64,000 bases of DNA from NCBI RefSeq assembly GCF_013315695.1, contig NZ_CP054353.1; one strand, 5' to 3'. The position numbers and the translations under genes are program-made. Below are positions 31,958 to 44,968 of the stretch, in pieces. The DNA comes from Escherichia coli (lineage in GTDB: Bacteria > Pseudomonadota > Gammaproteobacteria > Enterobacterales > Enterobacteriaceae). The notes under the pieces were generated by a model, which was not told the DNA's origin, ran no database searches, and worked only from the letters and a program-made list of their open reading frames with translations. Every line of letters starts with the position of its first letter. Position 1 is the stretch's first letter.

Positions 31958-32215
31958 TCACATCGCCGGAAGTGGCAGCGACATCTGCGCATCACCACGG
32001 TGTGACGCTGGCAGGCTCTGCCACGGAATATCCGGTGAAGTACCACCGCTGCGCTTTACGGTGAGTTTTTCGAAGCTCTCCAGCGTCGAGAAGGAGAGAC
32101 TGCATTCGGGATTGTTGCACTGGTAGAGCTTCTGCCGGACAGTGCGTGAGTCGTTCGCGGCGCGGCTTGTGCGGGTGCGCGTGCTCGCACCACAAAAAGG
32201 ACACGGAAAAGACAT
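31958..32215 (-). CDS. ogr: Ogr/Delta-type zinc-finger late-gene activator
   Basis: 85-aa ORF with CPFC...C...NPEC zinc-finger spacing, adjacent to gene D as in P2. Confidence 0.75.
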   Translation of the reverse strand: MSFPCPFCGASTRTRTSRAANDSRTVRQKLYQCNNPECSLSFSTLESFEKLTVKRSGGTSPDIPWQSLPASHRGDAQMSLPLPAM

Positions 32216-32267: not shown

Positions 32268-33383
32268 TTATTCCTGTTGCGCTATCCATTCAGGAATTTT
32301 TAATTCCAGCTCAAGCCGCGTGGTGAAGCCGCTGTCGTCGATGTTGTGCTCCACCTTCGCCAGTACCCAGTCCTCCGCGTCGATGTCACTCTTGAAACCG
32401 GATACCGTGCCGCGCATTTCGGGGTACAGGTCGGGGCGACCGCGTGCCAGCGTGATGGAGAACTCAGCCGCGCCGCGCTGTAGCTGCTGCCATTTTGCCG
32501 CCGCTGCACGGCGTGCGGCCTCCTCGTTTTTGAAGGTTTTACGCATGACGTACACATTGCCGTCTGCGCCCTCCATGTAATCCCCCTCGCGGCTGCTGCT
32601 TTTCTCCTTTTTTGTTTTTTGGGCAGAACCACGTTTTGTCACGCTGACTTTTTTCTTTTTGCCAAAGTCCAGATCCAGCCAGTAAGCGCGCACCCCCGTG
32701 TACGCCTGCCGGTCTGCAATGCGGAAGTGATGGCTGTCACCGCTGCTGCGGGTGATGGCGAATGAGGGCAGCGGCTTTCCGCTGGCGCTCACCCCCTGTC
32801 CGGGCACGATGAAAAGCAGGGCACCGTTTTTGACGGTGGCGATGGCGCCCAGCATGTCCGCCATGCGCGTGAGAAACGAGATGTCACTTTCCTCCGTCTG
32901 GTCGGCGTGGTCGATTTCCACCTCTGCCAGCGAGGCGCTGATTTGTGCCTTCAGTCCGTAGCGGTACGCGATGGCAGAAACAACCTGTCCCACCGTCACG
33001 TCATGCCAGGACACTTCACGCTTCACGTTGAACTCCTGCCGGAAGTCTGCGCTGCTGGCCGTGATGGTGAGCCTATCCGGTGGTCCCTCATGTGTCACCT
33101 CGTCAACGATGAAGGTTCCCTTGTCTGTCAGCGCCTCACCTTTCCAGCCCAGCGCCAGACCCAGCGTCTGTCCGCGCTTCGGGAGTTGCACTCCGCCGTC
33201 GCAGTCGTCAATCGTGAGGGTTAACTGGTCCGCCTCAAATCCCCGGTTGTCGGTCATCGCCAGCGAGATGACCCGTCGGGTCAGCGCCGCGTTTTCCGTG
33301 CCCTTAACCGTGATGGAAAAATCAGGGATCTTCACGCACTCTGACAGACCGTTCAGGTATCCGCTTACGTCCGCAGGGTTCAT
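32268..33383 (-). CDS. Tail protein D (P2 gpD family)
   Basis: Translation from the internal Met (MNPADVSGYLNG...) aligns along its length with my recollection of P2 gpD (LTMTDNRGFEADQL, SGDSHHF, EFSITLARGR motifs). Confidence 0.85.
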   Translation of the reverse strand: MNPADVSGYLNGLSECVKIPDFSITVKGTENAALTRRVISLAMTDNRGFEADQLTLTIDDCDGGVQLPKRGQTLGLALGWKGEALTDKGTFIVDEVTHEGPPDRLTITASSADFRQEFNVKREVSWHDVTVGQVVSAIAYRYGLKAQISASLAEVEIDHADQTEESDISFLTRMADMLGAIATVKNGALLFIVPGQGVSASGKPLPSFAITRSSGDSHHFRIADRQAYTGVRAYWLDLDFGKKKKVSVTKRGSAQKTKKEKSSSREGDYMEGADGNVYVMRKTFKNEEAARRAAAAKWQQLQRGAAEFSITLARGRPDLYPEMRGTVSGFKSDIDAEDWVLAKVEHNIDDSGFTTRLELELKIPEWIAQQE

Positions 33384-33545
33384 CGCAATTTCTCCGTCTG
33401 TGTCTTCGTCCGGCGAAATACTCCCACGCGCACGGAGGCGCTGTAATCCTGCGTATGTTGTCGGAGAACGGTGAGAACAGGCAGCGCGTGAATGCGGGGC
33501 TGTTTTTCGGGAGGATGTCGCCACACAAAACACCAGGAGGTGCTC

Positions 33546-34727
33546 ATGAGTGAAACACGCTTTCACGGTGCACGCGTCAAAGAAAACACCGACCTTGTGA
33601 CCGCGATTAATGACATTGATTCCAGTGTCATCGGTATCGTGGCCACGGCGGACGATGCAGACAGCGACGCGTTCCCGTTAAACAAACCCGTATTGATCAC
33701 CCGCGTGGCGAATGTGCTGGGTAAGGCAGGCACAACAGGCACGCTGTACAAAACGCTCAAGGCGATTTCCGACCAGACCAGCCCGAAGGTTATCGTGGTG
33801 CGTGTGGCTGAAGCCGGAGAGGAAGGTGAGACACAGGATCAGCTTGTCATCGGTGGCTCGCAGGCTGACGGCAGCTACACGGGCATGTATGCCCTGCTGG
33901 TTGCTGAACAGGACGAGAGCATTGGTTACCGCCCGCGCATTCTGGCGGCTCCCGGCCTGGATACCGAAGCAGTCACATCCGCCCTGTGCGTCATTGCGGA
34001 CAAGCTCCGCGCCTTTGTGTACGCCGGATGTAACGGGTGCGACACGATGGCGGAGGCAATCACTTACCGTGCGAAGTTCTCCGCGCGTGAGCTGATGCTG
34101 CTGTGGCCTGACTTCATTGCCTACAACCCGGTGAGCGGAAATAACGAAACATTTCCGGCAGCGGCGTATGCGTGCGGGTTGCGTGCGCGGATTGACAGTG
34201 AACAGGGCTGGCACAAGTCACTGTCCAACGTGGCGCTGAAAAATGTTCTCGGTATGTCGCAGCAGGTGTTCTGGTCGTTGCAGGCCGAAGACAGTGATGC
34301 GAACAACCTGAACAACAAGGAAATCACCACGATTATTCGCCGTAACGGCTTCCGCTTCTGGGGGAACCGTACTGCCGAAACCAGCGACTACATCTTTGAG
34401 GTGTACACGCGCACAGCGCAGATTCTGGCAGATACCATCGCTGAGGCGCAGTTCGAAACCATTGACGAACCGCTGACCCCGGCGAACGTGAAGGACGTGA
34501 TTAGCGCCATCCGCGCAAAACTCAACGCCCTGGTCACCGCCGGGAAACTCATCGGTGCGGAGTGCTGGTATGACGTGCTGGACAACGGCACGACGGATTT
34601 GCGTCAGGGGCGCGTGCGCATCCGCTACAAGTACACGCCAGTGCCGCCGATGGAAGATCTGACGCTGTATCAGACCTTCACGGATGAGTATTTCGACTCC
34701 GCTTTTGCAACGCTGGGAGGTGCGTAA
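33546..34727 (+). CDS. Contractile tail sheath protein (gpFI)
   Basis: From ATG 33546 with AGGAGG RBS; FPLNKPVLIT, GFRFWGNRT and YTPVPPMEDLTL motifs match P2 FI. Confidence 0.9.
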   Translation: MSETRFHGARVKENTDLVTAINDIDSSVIGIVATADDADSDAFPLNKPVLITRVANVLGKAGTTGTLYKTLKAISDQTSPKVIVVRVAEAGEEGETQDQLVIGGSQADGSYTGMYALLVAEQDESIGYRPRILAAPGLDTEAVTSALCVIADKLRAFVYAGCNGCDTMAEAITYRAKFSARELMLLWPDFIAYNPVSGNNETFPAAAYACGLRARIDSEQGWHKSLSNVALKNVLGMSQQVFWSLQAEDSDANNLNNKEITTIIRRNGFRFWGNRTAETSDYIFEVYTRTAQILADTIAEAQFETIDEPLTPANVKDVISAIRAKLNALVTAGKLIGAECWYDVLDNGTTDLRQGRVRIRYKYTPVPPMEDLTLYQTFTDEYFDSAFATLGGA

Positions 34728-35673: not shown

Positions 35674-35837
35674 TCACGCTGGCGAAGTTCGACAACGTTG
35701 AAGAACTGGTCGCTGATATAGCAGTCGTGTTTAACTGGTCGCCCGGCGAGATATTCTCAATGCCTCTCGTCGAGGTGATGAGCTGGCGTGAGCGGGCGGC
35801 GCAACGTAGCGGAGTCCGCAACAGTGAAATCCCTTGA
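35290..35837 (+). CDS. gpE+E' fusion produced by programmed -1 frameshift
   Basis: TTTTTTTG at 35619-35626; the -1 frame is open from the slip site to TGA at 35835-35837, overlapping the start of T, as in P2 E/E'. Confidence 0.55.
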
Positions 35838-38800
35838 TATTCGTGTCAGCTTTGGCGCAATTGACCGGCTGACATGCCCGACCGAAAACGCCCGCCGTCA
35901 GGTGGGCGCTCTCACTGAATCCCTTCAGAAGACGCAGAACAACATACAGGCGCTCGACAGACAGTCGAAGGTGTTCGATCGTGCCGCCGGAAATCTCAGT
36001 AAATACCGCGAACAGATTGCCCGCGCGGAGCAGAGGCTCGCCGGGCTGCGAAAGGCAGAGCAGAACGGTAACATCCTCTCCGAAAAGCAGCGCGAAACGC
36101 TGGCGGCACTCTCCGCGCGGCTTGAGCGCCTGAACGAGCTGCGCACGCGCGAGCGCGAAAAACTCCAGGCGGCGGCTGGCGAAATGCGTAAACATGGCAT
36201 TCTGCTTTCCGGCAGCAGCCGCACCATCGAAAGTGCCGTTCGTCGCACGCAGCAGTACAACGAGCAGCTCGAGCGTGAACGGCAGGCTCTGGCTCGCGTG
36301 ACGCAGGCACAGAGCCGCTATGAGGCCGCGAAGGCACAGGCGGAAAAACTGCGCAACACAGGGGCTGTGGCGATGGCGGCGGGTACAGGCGGCCTGTATG
36401 CGGCGCAGCGCATGATGGCTCCGGCGATGGAGTCCGAACAGCACGGTGCGGTCATCGCAGCCGGTTCGGGGGAAGGCGCACAGGATGGCGCACGTTACAC
36501 CCACATCATCCGTAACATACAGGCTGACGGTCTCGCTGATTTTGCCGGTGCTGCGGAGGCCGTGAGTGCGGTACGCAGCACGCTCGGCGCACTGGGCGAC
36601 ACCGGTGACAGGGAGCTTGAGCGCATCAGCCGTCGTGCGCTGGATATGCGGACCGTCTTTGGTGTTGATGTGCCGCAGAGCATTCAGGCCGCTGCCATCA
36701 TGATGAAGAACGGGCTGGCCGCCAGCAGTGACGAGGCTACTAACCTGATGACGGCAGGGATGCAGCGCATGTCCGCTGAAATGCGCGATGAACTGCCGGA
36801 AATTCTGCATGAGTATTCCACCCACTTCCGCAACATGGGCTTCACCGGCAGCGAGACAATGAGTCTGCTGGTTGAGATGGCAAAGCAGGGCAAGTTTGCG
36901 CTGGACAAAACCGGCGATGCCGTGAAGGAGTTCAGTATCCGTGGTTCGGATATGTCGAAATCCAGTGTTTCAGCGTATGAGACACTTGGCCTGAATGCCG
37001 AACGGGTGTCTGCTGCCATTGCTCAGGGGGGCAGTACCGCACGCCAGGCGATGCAGGTGACCGCCCGTGCACTGCTGGCCATCCGTGACCCGGCAGAGCG
37101 GGCGAACACGGCCATTGCGTTATTCGGCACCCCCGTTGAAGACCTTTCCGTTGACCAGATCCCGCAGTTCCTGAGGGCGCTGGCTGATGTTCGTGACAAT
37201 CTGGGCGATGTCACCGGTGTGGCAGACCGCATGGGGCAGACGCTGCGCGGTAATCTCTCCGGCGATATTCAGGCGCTGAGTGGTGCGTTCTCAGGGCTAC
37301 GCACGGACATCTTCGGTACTGTGACCGAGGATTTGCGCGGGCTGGTTCAGACGGTGAGCGCGTGGGTGACCCGGATGCGCGAATGGGTCGGAGAGCATCA
37401 GGCGCTGGTCAGGGTGCTGGTACTGGCGGGCGGGAGTGTTCTGGCGCTGTCTTCTACGTTCGGTGCGCTGTCACTGACGCTCGGGCTGATTGCGGGGCCG
37501 CTGGCAAAACTGCAACTGGGACTGGGGCTGCTGACGGGGGGCGGCGGCATTGGTGGTGCTGTCCGGCTTGTGTCTGCGATGGCGCTGCGCCTGACGGGGC
37601 TGCCTGCGCTGTGGGGGCTGGTCACGGGGGCGGTGTCGGTACTGGGTGGTGCAGTGGGGGCGCTGTTCAGCCCGGTCGGGCTGATTGTTGCCGCCCTGGT
37701 GGGCGGCGCGGTTCTGGTGTGGAAATACTGGGATCAGATCAGTGCGTTTTTTTCCGGCTTTTTTGCCGGAGTGTGGGAGGCGCTGCAACCGCTGCGGGAA
37801 GCCTTTGCGTCGCTGGCTCCGGTGTTCGGGCTGATTGGCGATGGCATCAAAGCCGTGTGGGAATGGTTCACCCGCCTGCTTGAACCTGCAAACGCCTCAA
37901 AAGAGACACTCGACAAATGCACCAGCGCCGGGGAGTCGTTCGGGAAAACGCTGGGGTGGGTCATTCAGAACATTGTGCTGGGGCCGCTGACACTGCTTCT
38001 TGATGGCCTCGGCACAGTGCTGAAGTGGCTGGGTGTTATCCCGGATGGCATCAGGGAAGCGCAGAAGGAGACGCAAAAACTCCAGGAGAGCGCCGCAAAA
38101 CAGGCCACACAAAAAGCGCCGGTTGCGTGGGAGTGGGATCCTGCACAGAAAAAAATGGTGCAGAAAACATGGTCGTGGTCATCAGATGCAGCGGAAAACA
38201 ACGGTGACAATAAACCCGCAATACCTGCCCCTGCGGTTCCCGGAGAGGTGAAGGGAACGTCAGACAATCCGGTCGGCAAACCCGGTAGTAAATCCCCGCT
38301 GGATGAGGCATGGTTCCGGCAGGGGATACAGAAAACCGCCAGCAACACCGGCGGGCTGCTTGAGGAAACCAAAAAACGTACTGGTCCCGGCGATATTGTT
38401 TTCAAAAACCTGCCCGGACCCGAAATCATTCACGGCGAGTGGAAAGCACCGCAGGTTATCCGGACAGTGCAGGCGGTATCGGCGGGCGGAGGACTGGCGG
38501 ATGCGCTGACAACGCTCTGGCAGAAACTCACCGGAAGACAGACTGCTTCACCCGTTCCGGTCGTGAATATTCCTGCGCCAGTGGAGAGAGTGGCACGTCA
38601 GGTATCCACGCTGCCACAGCCGCAGCACAACGAGGCAAATACAGAACTGGTTGCCGGTATTCAGCGCGTGCATGAGGCTGTGAACAGTCCGGGGGGAGAG
38701 ACGGTATCGCCTCCACCTGTGGTGAACGTTCTGATGCCAGCAGTGAATGTTCCTGCGCCAGTGGTGAGTGTGGCGCGTCAGGTATCCACGCTGCCGCAGC

Positions 38801-39288
38801 ACAACGAGGCAAATACAGAACTGGTTGCCGGTATTCAGCGTGTGCATGAGGCGGTGAACAGTCCGGGTGGAGAGACGGTATCGCCTCCACCTGTGGTGAA
38901 CGTTCTGATGCCAGCAGTGAATGTTCCTGCGCCAGTGGTGAGCGTGGCCCGTCAGGTATCCACGCTGCCGCAGCACAACGAGGCAAATACAGAGCTGGCT
39001 GCCGGTATTCAGCGCGTGCGTGAGGCTGTGAACAGTCCGGGTGGAGATGTGGCTTTATCTGTTCCTGTTGCGGAGGTTATCCGTCCACCGCTGCGACCGG
39101 AGTCCGTCAAAAAAGAAACCGCGCCACAAACGCAGGCTGCGGTATTTTCCGGTGAGATACACGTGCATCTGCACAACGTCAACACGCAGAATCCGCGTGA
39201 ACTGGCAAAACTGGTTGGCGAGGCTGTCCGCGAAGAGATGCGCAGACAGGTGCGTACAGGCATGAACAGCTTCCGTGACAGGGACTAA
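35788..39288 (+). CDS. Tail tape measure protein (gpT)
   Basis: 1166-aa ORF with a coiled-coil N-terminal half, Gly-rich TM segments and C-terminal tandem repeats; the track start at 35788 is a GTG and the true start is uncertain. Confidence 0.85.
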   Translation: MSGRRNVAESATVKSLDIRVSFGAIDRLTCPTENARRQVGALTESLQKTQNNIQALDRQSKVFDRAAGNLSKYREQIARAEQRLAGLRKAEQNGNILSEKQRETLAALSARLERLNELRTREREKLQAAAGEMRKHGILLSGSSRTIESAVRRTQQYNEQLERERQALARVTQAQSRYEAAKAQAEKLRNTGAVAMAAGTGGLYAAQRMMAPAMESEQHGAVIAAGSGEGAQDGARYTHIIRNIQADGLADFAGAAEAVSAVRSTLGALGDTGDRELERISRRALDMRTVFGVDVPQSIQAAAIMMKNGLAASSDEATNLMTAGMQRMSAEMRDELPEILHEYSTHFRNMGFTGSETMSLLVEMAKQGKFALDKTGDAVKEFSIRGSDMSKSSVSAYETLGLNAERVSAAIAQGGSTARQAMQVTARALLAIRDPAERANTAIALFGTPVEDLSVDQIPQFLRALADVRDNLGDVTGVADRMGQTLRGNLSGDIQALSGAFSGLRTDIFGTVTEDLRGLVQTVSAWVTRMREWVGEHQALVRVLVLAGGSVLALSSTFGALSLTLGLIAGPLAKLQLGLGLLTGGGGIGGAVRLVSAMALRLTGLPALWGLVTGAVSVLGGAVGALFSPVGLIVAALVGGAVLVWKYWDQISAFFSGFFAGVWEALQPLREAFASLAPVFGLIGDGIKAVWEWFTRLLEPANASKETLDKCTSAGESFGKTLGWVIQNIVLGPLTLLLDGLGTVLKWLGVIPDGIREAQKETQKLQESAAKQATQKAPVAWEWDPAQKKMVQKTWSWSSDAAENNGDNKPAIPAPAVPGEVKGTSDNPVGKPGSKSPLDEAWFRQGIQKTASNTGGLLEETKKRTGPGDIVFKNLPGPEIIHGEWKAPQVIRTVQAVSAGGGLADALTTLWQKLTGRQTASPVPVVNIPAPVERVARQVSTLPQPQHNEANTELVAGIQRVHEAVNSPGGETVSPPPVVNVLMPAVNVPAPVVSVARQVSTLPQHNEANTELVAGIQRVHEAVNSPGGETVSPPPVVNVLMPAVNVPAPVVSVARQVSTLPQHNEANTELAAGIQRVREAVNSPGGDVALSVPVAEVIRPPLRPESVKKETAPQTQAAVFSGEIHVHLHNVNTQNPRELAKLVGEAVREEMRRQVRTGMNSFRDRD
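38555..39052 (+). repeat. Tandem repeats of 180/174 nt inside the tape-measure gene (about 2.8 copies)
   Basis: gtgaat(a/g)ttcctgcgccagtgg... recurs at 38563, 38743 and 38917; encoded peptide PAPVxxVARQVSTLPQ...HNEANTELVAGIQRVHEAVNSPGGETVSPPPVVNVLMPAVNV repeats in frame. Confidence 0.7.
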
Positions 39289-39760
39289 AGGAGACGCAAT
39301 TATGATGATGATTTTTGGCATGTTTGTGTTTGAACTGAAAACGCTGCCGCATCAACAGATTCAACAAAACAAAACGTGGCGGCATGTGAAAAATGAGCGA
39401 ATCAACCGTTCTGCGGCCTGGCAGTATATTGGCGCAGGTGACGACCAGATCACGCTGTCCGGTCTGCTGTACCCGGAAATTACCGGCGGTGAGGTGTCGC
39501 TGACACTGCTGAACACCCAGGCCTACACCGGATGTCCCTGGCCGCTGATTGATGGTACGGGGCAGATTTACGGAATGTACGTGATTACGGGATTACAGAC
39601 CACCCGCTCCGAACTGGATCGCTACGGGAAGGCAAAAAAGATTGAGTTCTCCATCAGCTTTCAGCGGTGTGATGAGGATATGCGGGAGAGGCTTCAGTCT
39701 GCTTCTGCAGGTGATTTACTGAACACGCTTAAAGACAAAATGGCGATAGCGGCATTCTGA
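39275..39760 (+). CDS. Tail protein U (gpU family)
   Basis: 161-aa ORF following T with an MMMIFGMFVFELKT segment; the actual start may be the internal ATG at 39302. Confidence 0.8.
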   Translation: MTGTKGDAIMMMIFGMFVFELKTLPHQQIQQNKTWRHVKNERINRSAAWQYIGAGDDQITLSGLLYPEITGGEVSLTLLNTQAYTGCPWPLIDGTGQIYGMYVITGLQTTRSELDRYGKAKKIEFSISFQRCDEDMRERLQSASAGDLLNTLKDKMAIAAF

Positions 39761-39770
39761 ATAAAAAAAG

Positions 39771-39795
39771 AGGGAGTGTAAAAAGCACTCCCTTA
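39771..39795 (-). terminator. Intrinsic terminator, minus-strand orientation, abutting the U stop codon
   Basis: Reverse complement reads gggagtg-cttttta-cactccc followed by tctttttttat. Confidence 0.45.
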
Positions 39796-40140
39796 TTGCC
39801 TTCATGGAAAAGAAGCAAATGTTGTCAATACATTCTGACTATATATAAATCGCCCGATGAAGGCAATGGTGATGTTCGGGAAATAAAAAAGCCCTCACAA
39901 AGAGGGCGGCATGCATTGTGTGAAGATTTAATTTTTCTGCTTGCAGGGGGATTATATTGAACGGTATTCATTCAATGCAATATTTTTAATTGTCATTATC
40001 ATTAATGAAAATGTTTCTTGTGTTTTTGTTGCTCTGATTACAATCCCGTTTATTACTGTGTCTTTGCGGCAAAAAAAAAGCCCGCACGGGGCGGGCAAAG
40101 AATGTTTGCATGTGTAGAACAGTGCGGGATTATAAATATA

Positions 40141-40560
40141 TTATGCGTTCTGAAAAGTCCCCTTTGATGGAGATTCAGGCCATACCAGCGCATTATAACA
40201 ATCTTTATTCATCACGGAAGTGAACGTCAACTGCTGAAGTTCCCTAATATATTCAATCCACGTAGCCAACCTTCCCTTGTCTGCATTGCTGATGGTGCCG
40301 GGCAATAACTCAGATTGCCAGATTCTGATCCTCTCTTTTGCCTCCGGCAGCAGGGGATTTCGTTGTCATTCTGCTTTAGCCTGCCACTTTTCAGGTGGCA
40401 GCACATGACGAACAATATTTTCATCATCAAATATCCAGTTACCTGAGTCATCAGCACGTTGGTTAGCGTTAATATCAGAAGTATTAACAACACTAAAACC
40501 GACATGATTAAGTGTTGATGCCTCTCTGGTAATGGTGACAATAATATTATTTCGTTGTAA
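40141..40560 (-). pseudogene. Degenerate ORF of unknown family with an in-frame TGA and no start codon
   Basis: Minus-strand frame reads ...NWIFDDENIVRHVLPPEKWQAKAE*QRNPLLPEAKERIRIWQSELLPGTISNADKGRLATWIEYIRELQQLTFTSVMNKDCYNALVWPESPSKGTFQNA*, protein-like on both sides of the internal stop. Confidence 0.4.
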
Positions 40561-40770
40561 ATCATTTTGATTTTATCTGGTCGAAAGGTCCCTGCTTCGT
40601 TATGTCAGTTTTATCGCCTTCAGAGGAAACCAGATTACTTTGTGCTTCTTTTTCTAACACATACAGTCCCGGAGTTAATATTGCCTGTTTTATGTTCTTG
40701 AGTGCATCATATTAATCTCTTACATATTGTATCTGGTGAAATTTATAATTTTCTGAAGCTGCCTGAAAGA

Positions 40771-40870
40771 ATTGAGTTTCCTGCAGGCTTTCAATGGTGT
40801 GATGAGGATATGTGGGAGAAACTCCAGTCTGCTCCTGCAGGGGGGGCTTACTGAACACTATCAAAGACAA
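40771..40870 (+). repeat. Diverged direct copy of the 3' end of gene U
   Basis: attgagtttcctgcaggctttcaatggtgtgatgaggatatgtgggagaaactccagtctgctcctgcag...ctgaacac...aaagacaa parallels U 39641-39740 at about 80 percent identity. Confidence 0.6.
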
Positions 40871-40903
40871 ATCTTCGTCGTTGATCGCATTCCCTTAACC
40901 TGA

Positions 40904-40938
40904 CGCCACCACCCCACACAGATGACGGGGTGGTGGCG
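40904..40938. terminator. Perfect 12-bp inverted repeat hairpin between convergent tail operons
   Basis: cgccaccacccc ... ggggtggtggcg, located between the rightward FI-U unit and the leftward H unit. Confidence 0.5.
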
Positions 40939-40943
40939 TGATT

Positions 40944-41240
40944 TCACCAGTAACTAACCAGCAGCCAGAACAACAGGCATATTGCCACTGGTGCAGCAAA
41001 ATCCATCAGGCTTCCGGCATCCCACACGCGCGGATCAAAACCACCCCACCAGGGCATGTTAATTCGTTTCCCTTTCCCGAATTTTTCAATCCAGCGATAT
41101 TCTGCCTGGGTGTGTTCACGCGCAATGAAGAACGAGCAACCGGCTATCGCTCCGTAAACCCAGTTTCCCGTAAGAATGCCAGCCAGTACCTGCGCAGCCA
41201 CGGCACAAAGTGCATGAAGGACAGGCGTTATATCCATCAC
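40944..41240 (-). CDS. Hypothetical small membrane protein downstream of the tail fibre gene
   Basis: 98-aa ORF with hydrophobic N- and C-terminal segments (MMDITPVLHALCAVAAQVLAGILTG...AICLLFWLLVSYW); no family recognised. Confidence 0.5.
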   Translation of the reverse strand: MMDITPVLHALCAVAAQVLAGILTGNWVYGAIAGCSFFIAREHTQAEYRWIEKFGKGKRINMPWWGGFDPRVWDAGSLMDFAAPVAICLLFWLLVSYW

Positions 41241-41249
41241 TCCCTCCCT

Positions 41250-41528
41250 TCAGCTCCATTCCCGAAGCGGTGCTTCCAGCTCCACCACATAATCAGAGAA
41301 CACAGAAACATCAAACGTATCATCAAGAATACGAATGTTGACAAAATAACCGTCATTCCGGATACAGACAGGTTCTCCCTCTTCATTTTCCCCTGTTTCT
41401 GTATAGGTGAAACCAATTTCATCGACTAACAGTTTGTTCTGGAGGTCTTCATTTTCCTCCCAGCCAAGAGATGACAGGAGGGCTTTAAACTGCTGTTTGT
41501 CATGAAACTTCAAAGTCAAATCTTTCAT
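41250..41528 (-). CDS. Hypothetical acidic protein downstream of the tail fibre gene
   Basis: 92-aa ORF overlapping the H stop by 4 nt; strongly acidic; no family recognised; it occupies the position of a tail fibre assembly protein. Confidence 0.5.
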   Translation of the reverse strand: MKDLTLKFHDKQQFKALLSSLGWEENEDLQNKLLVDEIGFTYTETGENEEGEPVCIRNDGYFVNIRILDDTFDVSVFSDYVVELEAPLREWS

Positions 41529-43306
41529 ATTGCCTCTCTTAATTGCCTGTCATTTAATTCTTTATGCCATATGCGGAAATTACGAATGTGACCAAACAGA
41601 TGTCGTTCTCCAGTACTCGTTCGCCCTCCAATACGGATAATTGCGGAGTTCTGAATATATGACCATGTGGTTTTTGTTTCGCCGGATAACCGTCCGTTAC
41701 TGACTGAGCATGTAGACTGATCTGACTTTACTCGCATCCCTATAACCATTTTTTCAAGTGATGCGTTTTCGTTTACCCGCATGTTAGCCCCGCCTATATC
41801 GCAATAAGGAAATCCGTCGTAATCCGTCGAACGACCGAATCCAAGAATAATTTCCTCTCCAGTTTGATGACCACTGGTATTAAGAACACGCGGTGCTGCA
41901 TTTGGCGTTTTATACCAGTTCTTATGTACCTCACAAAGAACAGTAAAAGGAGGATTATAAAGATTATTCTTAACCGGAACTGTCACAATATCACTTGCAC
42001 GTGTTGCTGGTGTTGCACCCGATATAATAAATGATGATGCGCAGGGGCCATTTTCAACCTGAGGGGTGGACAGGAAAACATAATCTCCTGATTCAACGAC
42101 ACCACCTTCTTTCGGAGTGTATTGTATTGCCGATGTTATGTAGGACTCATCAATTGCCTGAATCGTTGCCTCTGCAAAAATCCAGCCGGTAACCTCATCT
42201 TTGTTAACTCGGGCAGTGATCCTGTCGGCAGCTCCTCCTGTGATTTTAACTGATAAAGATCGCGTATTAACAATGGCATATCCAAGGTTAGATGATGTGT
42301 TGCCATCGTAAGATTCAAACCTGATCCTTAACATGAGTTCCAGATCAGTTTTAAATCTGCACGATGTCGTCACGCACTTATTATCGCCTGAAACATCGAC
42401 GGCTCCGGTTACTGCAACTGATGCCATGTTAACAGGCAGGGACTGCCCAATCAGAGAATCGTTACAGACGAACTTTCCATAGGTAAAACCAGAACTGTCC
42501 GTCCCGGTTTCGGGAACATCCATATTTACCGACTTGCCCCAGTTGACCGGGGTTTCCGAATTGAGCATGTAGTTTGTTCTTTGCCCTTCAATAAGCAGTC
42601 CATCGCGTTCAAATCGCGGCTCATTAATTTCAGCTATTTTCAGTTCACCGGATTTATTGATATAGGTTGCCGTTGATGCGCGACTGAAACTAACCTGTTT
42701 ATCACTGGCAACCTGAACCACATCGTCACCAATGGTGATTTTTTTATAGCCCGGTGCGAACCCCGTAAGCATATCCAGTGAATCGTTAAACGGTATCCAC
42801 ACATCAGGCAGCGGCGGTACAGACTCCTTTTCCTGCGCAACATATTCTTCAACATAGGCGCGGGTGGCGAGCACGACAGAGGGATCAACTTTCAGTTCGA
42901 CAGACGAAGCACTGGAAACCACAACAATCATGCGAATCGTCTGCGTGCGCCCGCTTCCCTCGGTGAGTACAGGCTTGTAGGTTTCGGGGCAGTTCGCCAC
43001 GGCAATCATCACGCCGTCGCTGTCAAAAAGCCCAATCTCGCGGATCCAGAACCCCCCTTTATCTTCCGGGATAATCATCTCGGCGATAAGCTGGCTGGCA
43101 TCAGACGCGCTGATGCTCAGTTGATTCAATGGGGCGCTGTATACCGTGTTCACCAGATTTTCCATGGAAGCCTCCGGTTCCGGCAGGCTGCCGCCGCCAT
43201 CCCCCAGTTTCATGGTGGTGATGGATATTTTCGAGCCGCTGGCCACCGCCTTTGCCAGACGGGCGGCACCCTTGTCAGTCAGAACAGAAAAATATTTTAC
43301 AGTCAT
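41525..43306 (-). CDS. Tail fibre protein (gpH family) with divergent lower-GC C-terminal module
   Basis: N-terminus matches P2 H (ITTMKLGDGGG, GFWIREIGLFD, AVANCPETYKPVLTEGSG, RMIVVVSSASSVEL); the C-terminal two thirds are unrelated to P2 H. Confidence 0.8.
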   Translation of the reverse strand: MTVKYFSVLTDKGAARLAKAVASGSKISITTMKLGDGGGSLPEPEASMENLVNTVYSAPLNQLSISASDASQLIAEMIIPEDKGGFWIREIGLFDSDGVMIAVANCPETYKPVLTEGSGRTQTIRMIVVVSSASSVELKVDPSVVLATRAYVEEYVAQEKESVPPLPDVWIPFNDSLDMLTGFAPGYKKITIGDDVVQVASDKQVSFSRASTATYINKSGELKIAEINEPRFERDGLLIEGQRTNYMLNSETPVNWGKSVNMDVPETGTDSSGFTYGKFVCNDSLIGQSLPVNMASVAVTGAVDVSGDNKCVTTSCRFKTDLELMLRIRFESYDGNTSSNLGYAIVNTRSLSVKITGGAADRITARVNKDEVTGWIFAEATIQAIDESYITSAIQYTPKEGGVVESGDYVFLSTPQVENGPCASSFIISGATPATRASDIVTVPVKNNLYNPPFTVLCEVHKNWYKTPNAAPRVLNTSGHQTGEEIILGFGRSTDYDGFPYCDIGGANMRVNENASLEKMVIGMRVKSDQSTCSVSNGRLSGETKTTWSYIQNSAIIRIGGRTSTGERHLFGHIRNFRIWHKELNDRQLREAI

Positions 43307-44079
43307 GAAAAAATCCTCAAAGAATCCTCCAGAAATACCACTGATGCTGTCAGGGTTCCGGTTGTGGCGGTCAGTTGCATCACCGCCTGTGGCTCCACGG
43401 TCACCGCATCATCGCCCGTAACCTGTAATCCCATGACAATCCCCGCATCGACAGATACCGACGGTGTCGGCGGGTAAATGGTGAGCATGTCGCCGTCAAA
43501 GAAAGCCGGAGATGCCCGGAACACCGAAACAGTCTCAACACCGGCAGAAGCGGCTGGCCAGATTGTTGTTTCACTGCCGTCGTGCATGCCGGAAAACACA
43601 CGTGCGACTCCCTGCGTATCCAGCATAATGTTCAGCGAGGCAAGGTGGCGGCTGACCGGACGGGCATCGTCGATCAGTCGTGTCAGCTCGGAGTACGTTT
43701 CCTCTGTGATACCCGCGTCCTGCACGCCAATATCAATGCGGAACGTGCCGCGCGGGTCGCCGTTCTGCCACCACTCCGTCACGTTAATGACATAGCCAAA
43801 GGGTTCAACCACACGCCTGATGGCGCTGATGGTTCCCTTATGGCGGTGGATTGCCCAGGCATCACGGATCACCTGGCGCTTTGTTTCTTCCGTCCAGTCA
43901 CGATCCCACCTGTCCACGGACAGCGCCCACGCCAGATAAGGCAGCAGGGCTGCCGGGCAGGTGTCAGGATCCCAGAGCTGGTTAAGGCTGACAGGTAATG
44001 CTGACAACCGGGCGGTTCCCCGCTCCACGCAGCGCATGAAATCGCTGGCTGAAGGGGGGAGAAGTGACGGTTCACTCAT
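43303..44079 (-). CDS. Baseplate protein gpI
   Basis: NQLWDPDTCPAALLPYLAWALSVDRWD and TISAIRRVVEPFGYVINVTEWW motifs match P2 gpI; start taken at the internal Met 4 nt after the J stop. Confidence 0.85.
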   Translation of the reverse strand: MSEPSLLPPSASDFMRCVERGTARLSALPVSLNQLWDPDTCPAALLPYLAWALSVDRWDRDWTEETKRQVIRDAWAIHRHKGTISAIRRVVEPFGYVINVTEWWQNGDPRGTFRIDIGVQDAGITEETYSELTRLIDDARPVSRHLASLNIMLDTQGVARVFSGMHDGSETTIWPAASAGVETVSVFRASPAFFDGDMLTIYPPTPSVSVDAGIVMGLQVTGDDAVTVEPQAVMQLTATTGTLTASVVFLEDSLRIFS

Positions 44080-44968
44080 TGGTTCCCCCTGTGCTGACCG
44101 TGAACGATGTGCAGTACGCTGACTGCACATCACTGATAACAATATTCTGTGCGGGGCTGGTCAGTTCCACGCGCTGAACGCCCTGAACATGCAGTGCGGC
44201 CATGATGGCGGAGAGCGCGACATCGCGACCGATTTTGCCCTGTTCGGCAAGCCAGGTTTCCAGATTGTTTCTGGCGGCATTCAGGATGGGTTCCGACTCC
44301 GGCCCCGGATAAAAGTAAAGCCGGGCATCAATCTGATACCGTATGATTTCTGCGCTCTGCACCGTCAGACGGTCACCGACCGGGCGAACGTCTTCGGCAT
44401 TCAGCGCATTTCTGACCGTTGTCAGGAGTTCTTCGGTCGCCGTGCCGTCGCCTTCTGTGGACAACACTGTCACCACCACTTCCGCCGGTGCGGGGCTGGT
44501 TGCGCGCGCGTCCGCCACCTGACCGCTGGCACTGCGGGCAAAATATTCATACGCCCCGGTGGGACCGGCCACGCTGAGGCCATCAAATGCAGACTGCGCA
44601 CGCAGCCGCAGGGCGGAGTCGCTTTCCATGACGGCCTCCGTGGTGTCCATGGCCGGTGTGATGACCAGCCGCGCGGTGTTCATGTTGGCAGCGAGGTTGT
44701 CCAGGTCATCACCTGTGGAATGGCTCAGCATACAGGCCGCTGCGCCCTCATTAATGCGCTGGCGAAGCAGCAGTTCACGCAGCGCGAAAGCCTGGGCAAT
44801 GACCGTGAGCGGTTCGGACTCCAACGCCATGGCTGACCGGATGGCAGCCTGCTGTGTCTGTGGAAATGACGTAATGATGTCTTCTTTCACTTCCGCTAGG
44901 ATGACTTCAAAATCCGGCGTTTCAATAATCTGTGGTGTCGGCAGTTCCGACAGGTCAACGGCTGGCAT
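44072..44968 (-). CDS. Baseplate assembly protein gpJ
   Basis: 298-aa ORF, N-terminal MPAVDLSELPTPQIIE and C-terminal VQGVQRVEL...TGG match P2 J. Confidence 0.9.
   Translation of the reverse strand: MPAVDLSELPTPQIIETPDFEVILAEVKEDIITSFPQTQQAAIRSAMALESEPLTVIAQAFALRELLLRQRINEGAAACMLSHSTGDDLDNLAANMNTARLVITPAMDTTEAVMESDSALRLRAQSAFDGLSVAGPTGAYEYFARSASGQVADARATSPAPAEVVVTVLSTEGDGTATEELLTTVRNALNAEDVRPVGDRLTVQSAEIIRYQIDARLYFYPGPESEPILNAARNNLETWLAEQGKIGRDVALSAIMAALHVQGVQRVELTSPAQNIVISDVQSAYCTSFTVSTGGTNE

What the first reader, a model, noticed from the sequence alone, without database searches (positions are those of the whole stretch)
39761..40940. 1.1-kb AT-rich cargo after gene U, flanked by a duplicated U 3' end and containing a decayed ORF
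About 100 bp of the 3' end of U (39641-39740) recurs at 40771-40870 in direct orientation at roughly 80 percent identity, bracketing an AT-rich insert. The insert carries three minus-strand intrinsic terminators and a protein-like minus-strand frame (40141-40560) that has an in-frame TGA and no start codon. This is the footprint expected from cargo exchange by recombination within the conserved gene end, with the cargo gene since inactivated.
Basis: seen in the sequence. Interest (0 to 1): 0.6.

Follow-up and report, generated by a model that had tools for sequence, protein, structure and literature searches.

The report
Tail-fibre swap scar in a prophage
The AT-rich stretch after tail gene U is not foreign cargo: it is the prophage's own intergenic region, a dead tail-fibre chaperone gene, the last 50 bp of the old fibre gene and a stray copy of the U gene end, left by an old recombination that gave the phage a new tail fibre, which is ordinary phage mosaicism.

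Summary
39637-39739 recurs at 40766-40871 (81% over 107 columns, E=1e-20). The interval is AT-rich, has three minus-strand terminators and holds a decayed minus-strand gene.

The "cargo" reading is only partly right. The window is an E. coli chromosome carrying a P88-like (Xuanwuvirus-type, P2-family) prophage, in which the FI-FII-E-T-U operon normally converges on the tail-fibre operon.

The interval has four parts:
- a 380-bp U/tfa intergenic region, present full-length in 71 E. coli genomes;
- a full-length tail-fibre-assembly (Tfa/gpG, Caudo_TAP) pseudogene, 40141-40710, with one TGA and about seven frameshifting indels;
- the last ~50 bp of a P2-H/P1-S-type fibre gene, 40712-40765;
- a frameshifted relic of a second U allele's 3' end, 40766-40898, plus its hairpin.

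Next come orf98, orf92 and a different fibre gene. Their closest relatives in the phage collection lie in a lambdoid phage.

The same fibre-tip|U' junction occurs in E. coli TUM9803 and, at ~70% identity, in ST131-type prophages. Strain 135 keeps an intact tfa and fibre with no U' relic.

Best reading: one old unequal, illegitimate crossover between two collinear P88-like phages, which orphaned tfa. This is ordinary mosaicism and of low interest. The one unexpected point is a 165-bp intergenic core conserved far below the synonymous rate, which may encode a small RNA.

The parts
39302..39760 (+). Intact tail gene U (152 aa from the ATG used in RefSeq homologues; the mechanical ORF starts at GTG 39275). 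It is the last gene of the FI-FII-E-T-U operon.
   Evidence: Pfam Phage_P2_GpU PF06995 E=9e-40, residues 6-125; PHROG 76 E=1e-65; dN/dS 0.06-0.07 against L001 and L003; homologues annotated 'phage tail protein'.
39636..39741 (+). Copy 1 of the direct repeat: codons ~112-147 of the functional U gene.
39761..40140 (.). Resident 380-bp intergenic region where the U operon and the tail-fibre operon converge. It is not part of any insertion.
   Evidence: Present full-length, and unannotated, in 71 of 5426 complete E. coli genomes, including strain 135 with an intact tfa.
39771..39793 (-). Terminator T3: an 8-bp stem followed by U7 on the minus strand. It also sits 11 nt after the U stop codon, so it probably acts in both directions.
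   Evidence: compensatory G:C to C:G swap in L001 and L003.
39771..39935 (-). Highly conserved non-coding core, containing T3, a minus-strand promoter-like site (TTGCCT-17-TATAGT, 39866-39838) and T2. It is a candidate ~70-nt small RNA running from about 39832 to 39763.
   Evidence: 90-97% invariant columns in most 30-nt blocks (80% in one), against 73% in the U 3' end and 50-63% in 39936-40067. A 1-nt indel at ~39817 in 6 of 9 sequences argues against coding. Fold z-score -2.96. No Rfam match.
39891..39907 (-). Terminator T2 (6-bp stem, U6).
   Evidence: stem invariant in 9 sequences, one loop substitution.
40080..40096 (-). Terminator T1 (6 G-C pairs, U9), directly downstream of the tfa stop codon. 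It is the original terminator of the tail-fibre operon.
   Evidence: nearly invariant in 9 sequences (one stem-end substitution in L005/L009).
40141..40710 (-). Full-length pseudogene of a tail-fibre assembly protein (Tfa, P2 gpG / P1 U type). It has an in-frame TGA at 40366-40368 and about seven 1-2-nt indels in 40561-40710. The ATG at 40710-40708 is retained.
   Evidence: PHROG 136 E=1e-27; Caudo_TAP PF02413 E=3.4e-14; 63% aa identity to the intact Tfa of strain 135; DNA alignment to P2 and P1; dN/dS 0.34 against 0.07 for U.
40712..40765 (-). Relic of the last ~17 codons and stop codon (40714-40712) of the former tail-fibre gene (P2 H / P1 S type).
   Evidence: blastn to P1 S/U, P2 H/G and SfMu fibre/tfa junctions extends to window ~40747-40767; alignments A2 and A3.
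40766..40898 (+). Relic of the 3' end (~40 codons plus stop) of a second U allele (U'). It is copy 2 of the direct repeat and is frameshifted at the G7 run 40840-40846.
   Evidence: The L001 copy has a different frameshift. The homologous relic in ST131-type L002 runs into a canonical U stop codon and a T3-like terminator.
40903..40939 (.). Stem-loop with a 13-bp stem between the U' relic and orf98. It has no clear U-run on either strand. It probably marks the 3' end of the convergent units in the parent that carried U'.
   Evidence: Sequence; C:G to T:A compensatory change in L001; the lambdoid copy of the cassette (L006) starts only at 40942, so the hairpin belongs with U'.
40944..43306 (-). 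The current fibre module: orf98 (40944-41240, small hydrophobic, membrane-like protein), orf92 (41250-41528) and fibre gene H* (41525-43306). H* has a P2-H-type N-terminus and a different receptor-binding part.
   Evidence: PHROG 1443, 1361 and 1419/327; NCBIfam GTA_spike_fiber domain; orf98, orf92 and the fibre 3' end match lambdoid phage Lambda_2E9 at 85.6%.
43303..44142 (-). Baseplate gene I. Similarity to the strain-135-type prophage resumes at ~43609, which is the right-hand edge of the variable block. The last ~100 codons (43303-43608) are an extension absent from the 179-aa gpI of relatives.

Best explanation
The interval is a recombination scar in the tail region of a P88-like, P2-family prophage.

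Two collinear phages of this group differed in their fibre modules:
- Parent A: ...T-U -> intergenic region <- tfa <- H(old) <- I...
- Parent B: ...T'-U' -> hairpin <- orf98-type gene <- other fibre <- I'...

An unequal, illegitimate crossover joined the 3' tip of A's fibre gene to a point ~130 bp before the end of B's U' gene. Any shared sequence at the joint is at most about 5 nt, around ...GAAAGA|ATTGAG.

The product keeps A's left arm: functional U, the intergenic region with its terminators, tfa and 50 bp of H. It keeps B's right arm: the last ~40 codons of U', the hairpin, orf98 and the fibre. The old fibre gene was lost.

tfa then had no cognate fibre to fold, and the U' fragment had no start codon. 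Both have decayed since by nonsense mutation, frameshifts and deletions. Later exchanges to the right of orf98 changed the fibre again.

Shown here: the identity of each piece, the position of the joint, the presence of the same joint in diverged prophages, and the pseudogene lesions.

Inferred: the order of events, the number of crossovers (one unequal crossover, or a two-crossover cassette replacement with the second exchange in gene I near 43609), and that orf92/orf98 rather than Tfa serve the present fibre.
For: 1. Convergent gene order is normal for this group. D(-) | FI FII E T U (+) converging on tfa/fibre/I/J/W/V (-) is seen in five E. coli prophages and in phage P88 itself.
2. Strain 135 (L003) shows the parent-A state: U, the same intergenic region, an intact 187-aa tfa, a 1079-aa fibre and no U' relic.
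3. The decayed frame is Tfa. Its 5' third and the 50 bp upstream align to the G/H junction of P2 and the U/S junction of P1 and SfMu.
4. Similarity to U starts within a few bases of where similarity to the fibre gene ends (alignments A2 and A3).
5. The same joint is present in TUM9803 (L001, ~90% identical, with extra deletions between the short repeats 40357-40371 and 40549-40563) and in ST131-type prophages (L002; 70.7% over 215 columns, E=2e-20; the middle of tfa is deleted, and U'' runs to a canonical U stop codon plus terminator and then straight into orf94).
6. The U' relics carry different frameshifts in the window and in L001, as expected for neutral decay.
7. orf98, orf92 and the fibre 3' end match a lambdoid phage. 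That match begins only at 40942, so U' and the hairpin came from a P88-like parent.
8. Sliding identity shows strong mosaicism around the joint.
9. dN/dS of the tfa relic is 0.34, against 0.07 for U.
Against: - No prophage with an intact U' directly followed by this hairpin and orf98 (parent B) was found. In 5426 E. coli genomes the best U genes are only ~80% identical to the relic. Exact-pattern scans of viral, genome and metagenome collections gave only the same haplotypes.
- The microhomology at the joint is short and was read by eye.
- One crossover cannot be told apart from two.
- dN/dS of the tfa 3' part is 0.34, not ~1. That part also has no indels while the 5' third has seven, so the 3' part may have been refreshed by later recombination with a live tfa, or inactivated more recently.
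- How many of the 71 genomes carry the scar rather than an intact tfa was not counted.
Confidence: 0.78

Rival explanations
1. First reader's model. The conserved 3' end of U is a recombination anchor, and the AT-rich DNA between the two U ends is an exchangeable cargo (moron) cassette whose gene has since died.
For: Direct repeats of a conserved gene end bracket AT-rich DNA that has its own terminators. In P2 the site after the fibre-assembly gene G holds the non-essential gene Z/fun (my own knowledge of P2, not tested here).
Against: The bracketed DNA is the resident intergenic region plus the phage's own tfa and fibre tip. Its content is the same in every related locus aligned here; only its decay differs. 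The left edge of U' is joined to fibre-gene sequence, not U sequence. The two repeats are ~80% identical and no related locus shows recombination between them.
Confidence: 0.05
2. Two-crossover cassette replacement. A fibre cassette (U' end, hairpin, orf98, orf92, H*, I C-terminal extension) from a donor replaced the resident fibre gene, through one homologous exchange in gene I (~43609) and one illegitimate exchange at 40765/40766.
For: Similarity to the strain-135-type prophage is lost from 40444 and returns at 43609, inside gene I. Both flanks are 94-95% identical.
Against: The product is the same as in the single unequal crossover, so present data cannot separate the two. The flanks are themselves mosaic (the U-intergenic-tfa block is 87.6% identical to L003 while its neighbours are 95%), so the boundary at 43609 may date from a later exchange.
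Confidence: 0.12
3. Local tandem duplication of the U 3' end, by slippage or unequal sister exchange, followed by insertion of tfa-containing DNA between the copies.
For: The repeats are direct and only 1.1 kb apart.
Against: The U' tail (…AAATCTTCGTCGTTGATCGCATTCCCTTAA plus a different hairpin) differs from the resident U end. In L002 the relic ends in a third version. The intergenic region and tfa are in their normal place directly after U, as in strain 135. This model needs more steps.
Confidence: 0.03
4. The relics are kept for a function, for example as a silent cassette for gene conversion or inversion of tail genes, as in the invertible fibre segments of P1, Mu and P88.
For: P88 has a DNA invertase and an invertible fibre/tfa segment exactly here. 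The hairpin 40903-40939 shows a compensatory change.
Against: There is no invertase gene or relic in the window's interval. The repeats are direct, not inverted. tfa and U' carry different disabling lesions and deletions in different lineages.
Confidence: 0.02

Closest known systems
Horizontal exchange of tail-fibre modules (fibre gene plus assembly chaperone) among P2, P1, Mu, lambda-type and other phages (Haggard-Ljungquist et al. 1992, J Bacteriol, cited from my own knowledge; P88/pro147 host range set by the fibre gene, PMC5285337)
   Same: The variable block is the fibre module. The relic tfa and fibre tip are P2 G/H- and P1 U/S-like at 72-78% DNA identity. Part of the current module (orf98, orf92 and the fibre 3' end) matches a lambdoid phage.
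   Different: Here the exchange left a visible scar: an orphaned chaperone pseudogene, a fibre-gene tip and a fragment of the neighbouring operon's last gene. It was not a clean swap.
Mosaic joints made by illegitimate or relaxed-homology recombination in temperate phages (Hendrix/Juhala model, from my own knowledge; Rad52-like recombinase-driven exchange with defective prophages, PMC3945230)
   Same: A novel joint with little or no homology, close to a gene boundary, flanked by blocks with different histories.
   Different: This joint lies inside two genes (fibre 3' tip and U' 3' end). It survives because functional copies of what is needed lie on either side. It persists in lineages that have diverged to ~70% identity.
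Xuanwuvirus P88 tail region (U -> <- DNA invertase, invertible Sv'/tfa' and tfa/S segment)
   Same: Same convergent layout of the U operon and the fibre operon, with a P2 G-type tfa next to the fibre gene.
   Different: The window's prophage has no invertase and no alternative fibre end. P88 lacks the 380-bp intergenic region, the U' relic and orf98/orf92.
Morons such as P2 Z/fun, inserted after the fibre-assembly gene
   Same: Position next to tfa, low GC, own terminators.
   Different: No intact gene. The DNA is resident intergenic sequence plus pseudogenes of structural genes, and it is present in all relatives.

Membership tests
Tail-fibre assembly protein (Caudo_TAP PF02413 / PHROG 136; P2 gpG, P1 U, lambda Tfa) | Significant sequence similarity to the family profile | tested here: met
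   PF02413 E=3.4e-14; PHROG 136 E=1e-27; 63% identity over 136 aa to an intact Tfa.
Tail-fibre assembly protein (Caudo_TAP PF02413 / PHROG 136; P2 gpG, P1 U, lambda Tfa) | Uninterrupted reading frame from start to stop | tested here: not met
   TGA at 40366-40368; about seven frameshifting indels in 40561-40710. It is a pseudogene, not a working member.
Tail-fibre assembly protein (Caudo_TAP PF02413 / PHROG 136; P2 gpG, P1 U, lambda Tfa) | Lies directly downstream of its cognate fibre gene | tested here: not met
   Only the last ~50 bp of the fibre gene remain upstream (40712-40765).
P2 gpU tail protein (PF06995), for the second copy at 40766-40898 | Similarity to U over the Pfam domain and a complete ORF | tested here: not met
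   Only codons ~112-152 are present, largely C-terminal to the Pfam domain (residues 6-125 of U). There is no start codon and the frame is shifted at the G7 run. The resident U at 39302-39760 is a full member.
Moron / exchangeable cargo cassette | A gene foreign to the phage's core set, present in some relatives and absent from or replaced in others at the same slot | tested here: not met
   The content is the resident intergenic region plus structural-gene relics. Every related locus aligned here has the same content.
Rho-independent terminators (T1, T2, T3) | G+C-rich stem-loop followed by a U-run on the transcribed strand | tested here: met
   Stems are conserved in 9 sequences and T3 has a compensatory swap. 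Termination itself is not testable here.
Small regulatory RNA (candidate, 39832->39763 minus strand) | Own promoter, own terminator, conservation without coding capacity | tested here: inconclusive
   Promoter-like site at 9 of 12 consensus positions, a terminator, and 95-98% identity although U has dS ~0.36-0.39. An indel excludes coding. Only one covarying pair and no Rfam family.
Small regulatory RNA (candidate, 39832->39763 minus strand) | A transcript of that size is made | not testable with these tools
   Needs RNA-seq or a Northern blot.
Invertible tail-fibre segment (Cin/Gin/Pin type, as in P88) | DNA invertase gene and inverted crossover sites flanking alternative fibre ends | tested here: not met
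   No invertase ORF or tblastx match in 39761-40940. The repeats are direct.

The most novel reading that the evidence does not exclude
The 165-bp core of the U/tfa intergenic region (39771-39935) is a functional non-coding element of this prophage lineage. Most likely it is a ~70-nt terminator-ended small RNA, transcribed from the minus-strand promoter-like site at 39866-39838 and ending at T3. Its sequence is held about ten-fold below the synonymous substitution rate of the neighbouring U gene. If so, this prophage family, which includes the copy in ST131 strains, would encode an undescribed regulatory RNA between its two tail operons.
Probability: 0.3. Interest if true: 0.4.

Novelty: new member of a known kind. 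Interest (0 to 1): 0.15.

Why it matters
The main value is housekeeping. The result shows that an eye-catching "cargo flanked by repeats" is a scar from tail-fibre module exchange, so it should not be counted as a moron or defence locus.

It is a clean, datable example of an illegitimate joint inside two genes that has persisted in E. coli prophages, including those of ST131. It also shows how a fibre chaperone decays once its fibre is replaced. That is useful for annotation (Psi-tfa, Psi-H, Psi-U') and for reconstructing host-range switches in P88-like phages.

The conserved intergenic core is the only part that could lead to something new.

Tried and rejected
- Searches for a parent with an intact U' next to the hairpin and orf98. 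The E. coli complete genomes gave only three records with the relic, and otherwise U genes at ~80% identity. An exact hairpin pattern in IMG/VR gave 0.
- Searches for more diverged copies of the intergenic core. Two IMG/VR scans found the same 4 contigs. GTDB representative genomes gave 0. Metagenomes gave 6 hits: 5 were the known haplotypes and 1 was a chance match. The phage collection gave nothing. Covariation could therefore not be tested beyond one pair.
- Rfam at a permissive threshold gave only chance-level hits.
- A small hydrophobic plus-strand ORF in 39941-40117, considered as a possible type I toxin. Rejected as weak: its start and stop are not conserved, and L005/L009 have an in-frame stop.
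- Relics of a P88-type invertase in the interval: none by blastn or tblastx.
- Function of orf98 and orf92: no Pfam, NCBIfam or PADLOC match. They match only PHROGs of unknown function.
- The similarity between T1 and T2 (29 nt, 76%) was considered as evidence of stacked former 3' ends. It was dropped, because two A-run-plus-GC-stem terminators are expected to resemble each other this much.

Full report
CONTEXT

The window is an E. coli chromosome. pheS-pheT-ihfA (27586-31287) is 100% identical to strains MS 21-1 and MSB1_4I. A P2-family prophage starts just after ihfA. It has an Ogr-like zinc-finger gene (31958-32215) and gene D (ORF 32268-33566) on the minus strand. FI, FII, E, the tape-measure gene T (35788-39288) and U follow on the plus strand. 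Converging on them from the minus strand are orf98, orf92, a fibre gene, I, J, W, V and the other late genes.

This convergent layout differs from P2 but is normal for the P88 (Xuanwuvirus) group. It is annotated the same way in five E. coli prophages and in phage P88 itself. No complete E. coli genome carries this exact prophage; the best is 90% identical. Three metagenome or viral contigs are 99.6-100% identical over 39700-41000.

THE OBSERVATION

It holds on every point.
- The U 3' end (39637-39739) recurs at 40766-40871 in direct orientation, at 81% over 107 columns and E=1.2e-20. Nothing else in the window comes close.
- GC falls to 0.36-0.42 between the copies, against 0.52-0.60 outside.
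- Three minus-strand terminators lie at 40096-40080, 39907-39891 and 39793-39771.
- The minus-strand frame 40141-40560 is open apart from a TGA at 40366-40368.

WHAT THE PIECES ARE

(a) 39761-40140 is not inserted DNA. It is the normal intergenic region between U and the tail-fibre assembly gene. It is found full-length in 71 of 5426 complete E. coli genomes and is never annotated. One of these is strain 135 (L003), where it separates U from an intact 187-aa tfa and a 1079-aa fibre gene.

(b) The decayed frame is a tail-fibre assembly gene.
- It matches PHROG 136 (E=1e-27) and Pfam Caudo_TAP (E=3.4e-14), and is 63% identical over 136 residues to the strain-135 Tfa.
- DNA alignment with P2 G/H and P1 U/S shows that the gene is complete in length (40141-40710) and keeps its ATG.
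- About seven 1-2-nt indels destroy the frame in the first ~50 codons.

(c) 40712-40765 aligns with the last codons and stop codon of the P2 H / P1 S / SfMu fibre genes. It is the stump of the fibre gene that tfa once served.

(d) From 40766 the sequence switches, within a few bases, to the 3' end of a U gene. This relic runs to its own stop codon at 40896-40898 and is frameshifted at a G7 run (40840-40846). A 13-bp-stem hairpin follows at 40903-40939. The tail of this U' differs from the resident U, so it is a second allele and not a copy of the neighbour.

(e) Next come orf98, orf92 and a 593-aa fibre gene. The fibre has a P2-H-type N-terminus and a different distal part (PHROG 1419; NCBIfam spike-fibre domain). 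orf98, orf92 and the fibre's 3' end match a lambdoid phage (Lambda_2E9, beside sitABCD) at 85.6%. That match begins only at 40942, so U' and the hairpin did not travel with the lambdoid version.

RELATIVES

- TUM9803 (L001) has the same architecture at ~90% identity. It has extra deletions in tfa, one of them between the short direct repeats 40357-40371 and 40549-40563. Its U' relic carries a different frameshift.
- ST131-type prophages (L002, L004 and others) looked different at first. They keep only 128 bp of the tfa 3' end, followed by 320 unmatched bp. A sensitive alignment shows that those 320 bp contain the tfa start, the fibre tip and a U'' relic, joined at the same place. Identity to the window is 70.7% over 215 columns (E=2e-20). 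The relic ends in a canonical U stop codon and a T3-like terminator, and then runs straight into orf94.
- The joint is therefore old and arose once. It predates the divergence of these lineages and later changes of fibre gene to the right of orf98/orf94.
- Sliding identity confirms heavy mosaicism. Against L002, for example, U and the first part of the intergenic region (39400-39999) are 94-95.5% identical and I-J-W 91-98.5%, while FI-T is ~70% or unalignable.

MECHANISM

The simplest account is one unequal, illegitimate crossover between two collinear P88-like genomes.
- One parent had U-intergenic-tfa-H. The other had U'-hairpin-orf98-type gene-fibre.
- The tip of H was joined to a point ~130 bp before the end of U'.
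- The recombinant keeps a working U on the left and a working fibre module on the right. It loses the old fibre, and it carries tfa and the U' stump as dead weight.
- A two-crossover cassette replacement, with the second exchange in gene I near 43609 where similarity to strain 135 resumes, gives the same product and cannot be excluded.

Decay is visible but uneven. dN/dS of the tfa 3' part is 0.34, against 0.07 for U. The 5' third has seven indels and the 3' two-thirds have none. Later patching by recombination with a live tfa is possible.

The parent with an intact U' was not found.

In every related locus aligned here the enclosed DNA is the same, and the part that varies lies outside the repeats.

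WHAT WAS UNEXPECTED

Within the intergenic region, 39771-39935 is almost invariant across nine sequences from four or five haplotypes. Over 39761-39870, 104-108 of 109-110 positions are identical. The adjacent U gene has dS of 0.36-0.39 against L001 and L003, and 39936-40067 varies freely.

A 1-nt indel in six of nine sequences rules out coding. The core contains T3 (with a compensatory G:C to C:G swap), T2 and a minus-strand promoter-like site, TTGCC(T/A)-17-TATAGT. That site would give a ~70-nt terminator-ended RNA. Rfam has nothing like it.

Too little sequence diversity exists to test structure by covariation. This remains a lead, not a finding.

VERDICT

Interest is low.

Noticed in passing
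window 39771-39935: The intergenic core is conserved far more than the neighbouring U coding sequence (about 95-97% identity, against dS ~0.36-0.39 in U). It contains a promoter-like site and two terminators on the minus strand, and may encode a ~70-nt small RNA. Rfam has no match.
   Followed up: partly
window 40903-40939: Hairpin with a 13-bp G+C-rich stem between the U' relic and orf98, with no U-run on either strand. The TUM9803 copy (L001) has a compensatory C:G to T:A change, so the structure seems to be maintained.
   Followed up: partly
window 40944-41528; L006 5003-5587: orf98 (small, hydrophobic, membrane-like) and orf92 sit at the distal end of this fibre type in both P88-like prophages and a lambdoid phage (Lambda_2E9, next to sitABCD). 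They match PHROGs 1443 and 1361 of unknown function, with no Pfam, NCBIfam or PADLOC hit. They may be the fibre's accessory or exclusion genes.
   Followed up: partly
window 43303-43608: Baseplate gene I is 279 aa here, against 179 aa in relatives. The last ~100 codons are an in-frame extension with no match to the strain-135-type gpI. In TUM9803 this area is annotated as pseudogene fragments.
   Followed up: no
window 38563-39047: The tape-measure gene T carries 2.8 tandem copies of a 174-bp (58-codon) unit at 93% identity. Relatives have tape-measure genes of different annotated lengths.
   Followed up: no
window 31589-31729 (minus strand): A 46-aa Hok-family-like type I toxin ORF (NCBIfam HokA model E=2e-8, below the curated cut-off) lies between ihfA and the prophage's ogr-like gene (31958-32215). 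It may be a prophage-end moron or lie at the attachment junction.
   Followed up: partly
L017 (phage P88) 5525-8229: In P88 the position after U holds a DNA invertase and an invertible fibre/tfa segment (two convergent tfa genes). The window's prophage has none of this.
   Followed up: yes
L002 6969-7288 (E. coli KFu014; same in ST131 L004): The unannotated 320 bp between U's intergenic region and orf94 in ST131-type prophages is the same scar in a more decayed form: tfa with its middle deleted, the fibre tip and a U'' relic.
   Followed up: yes
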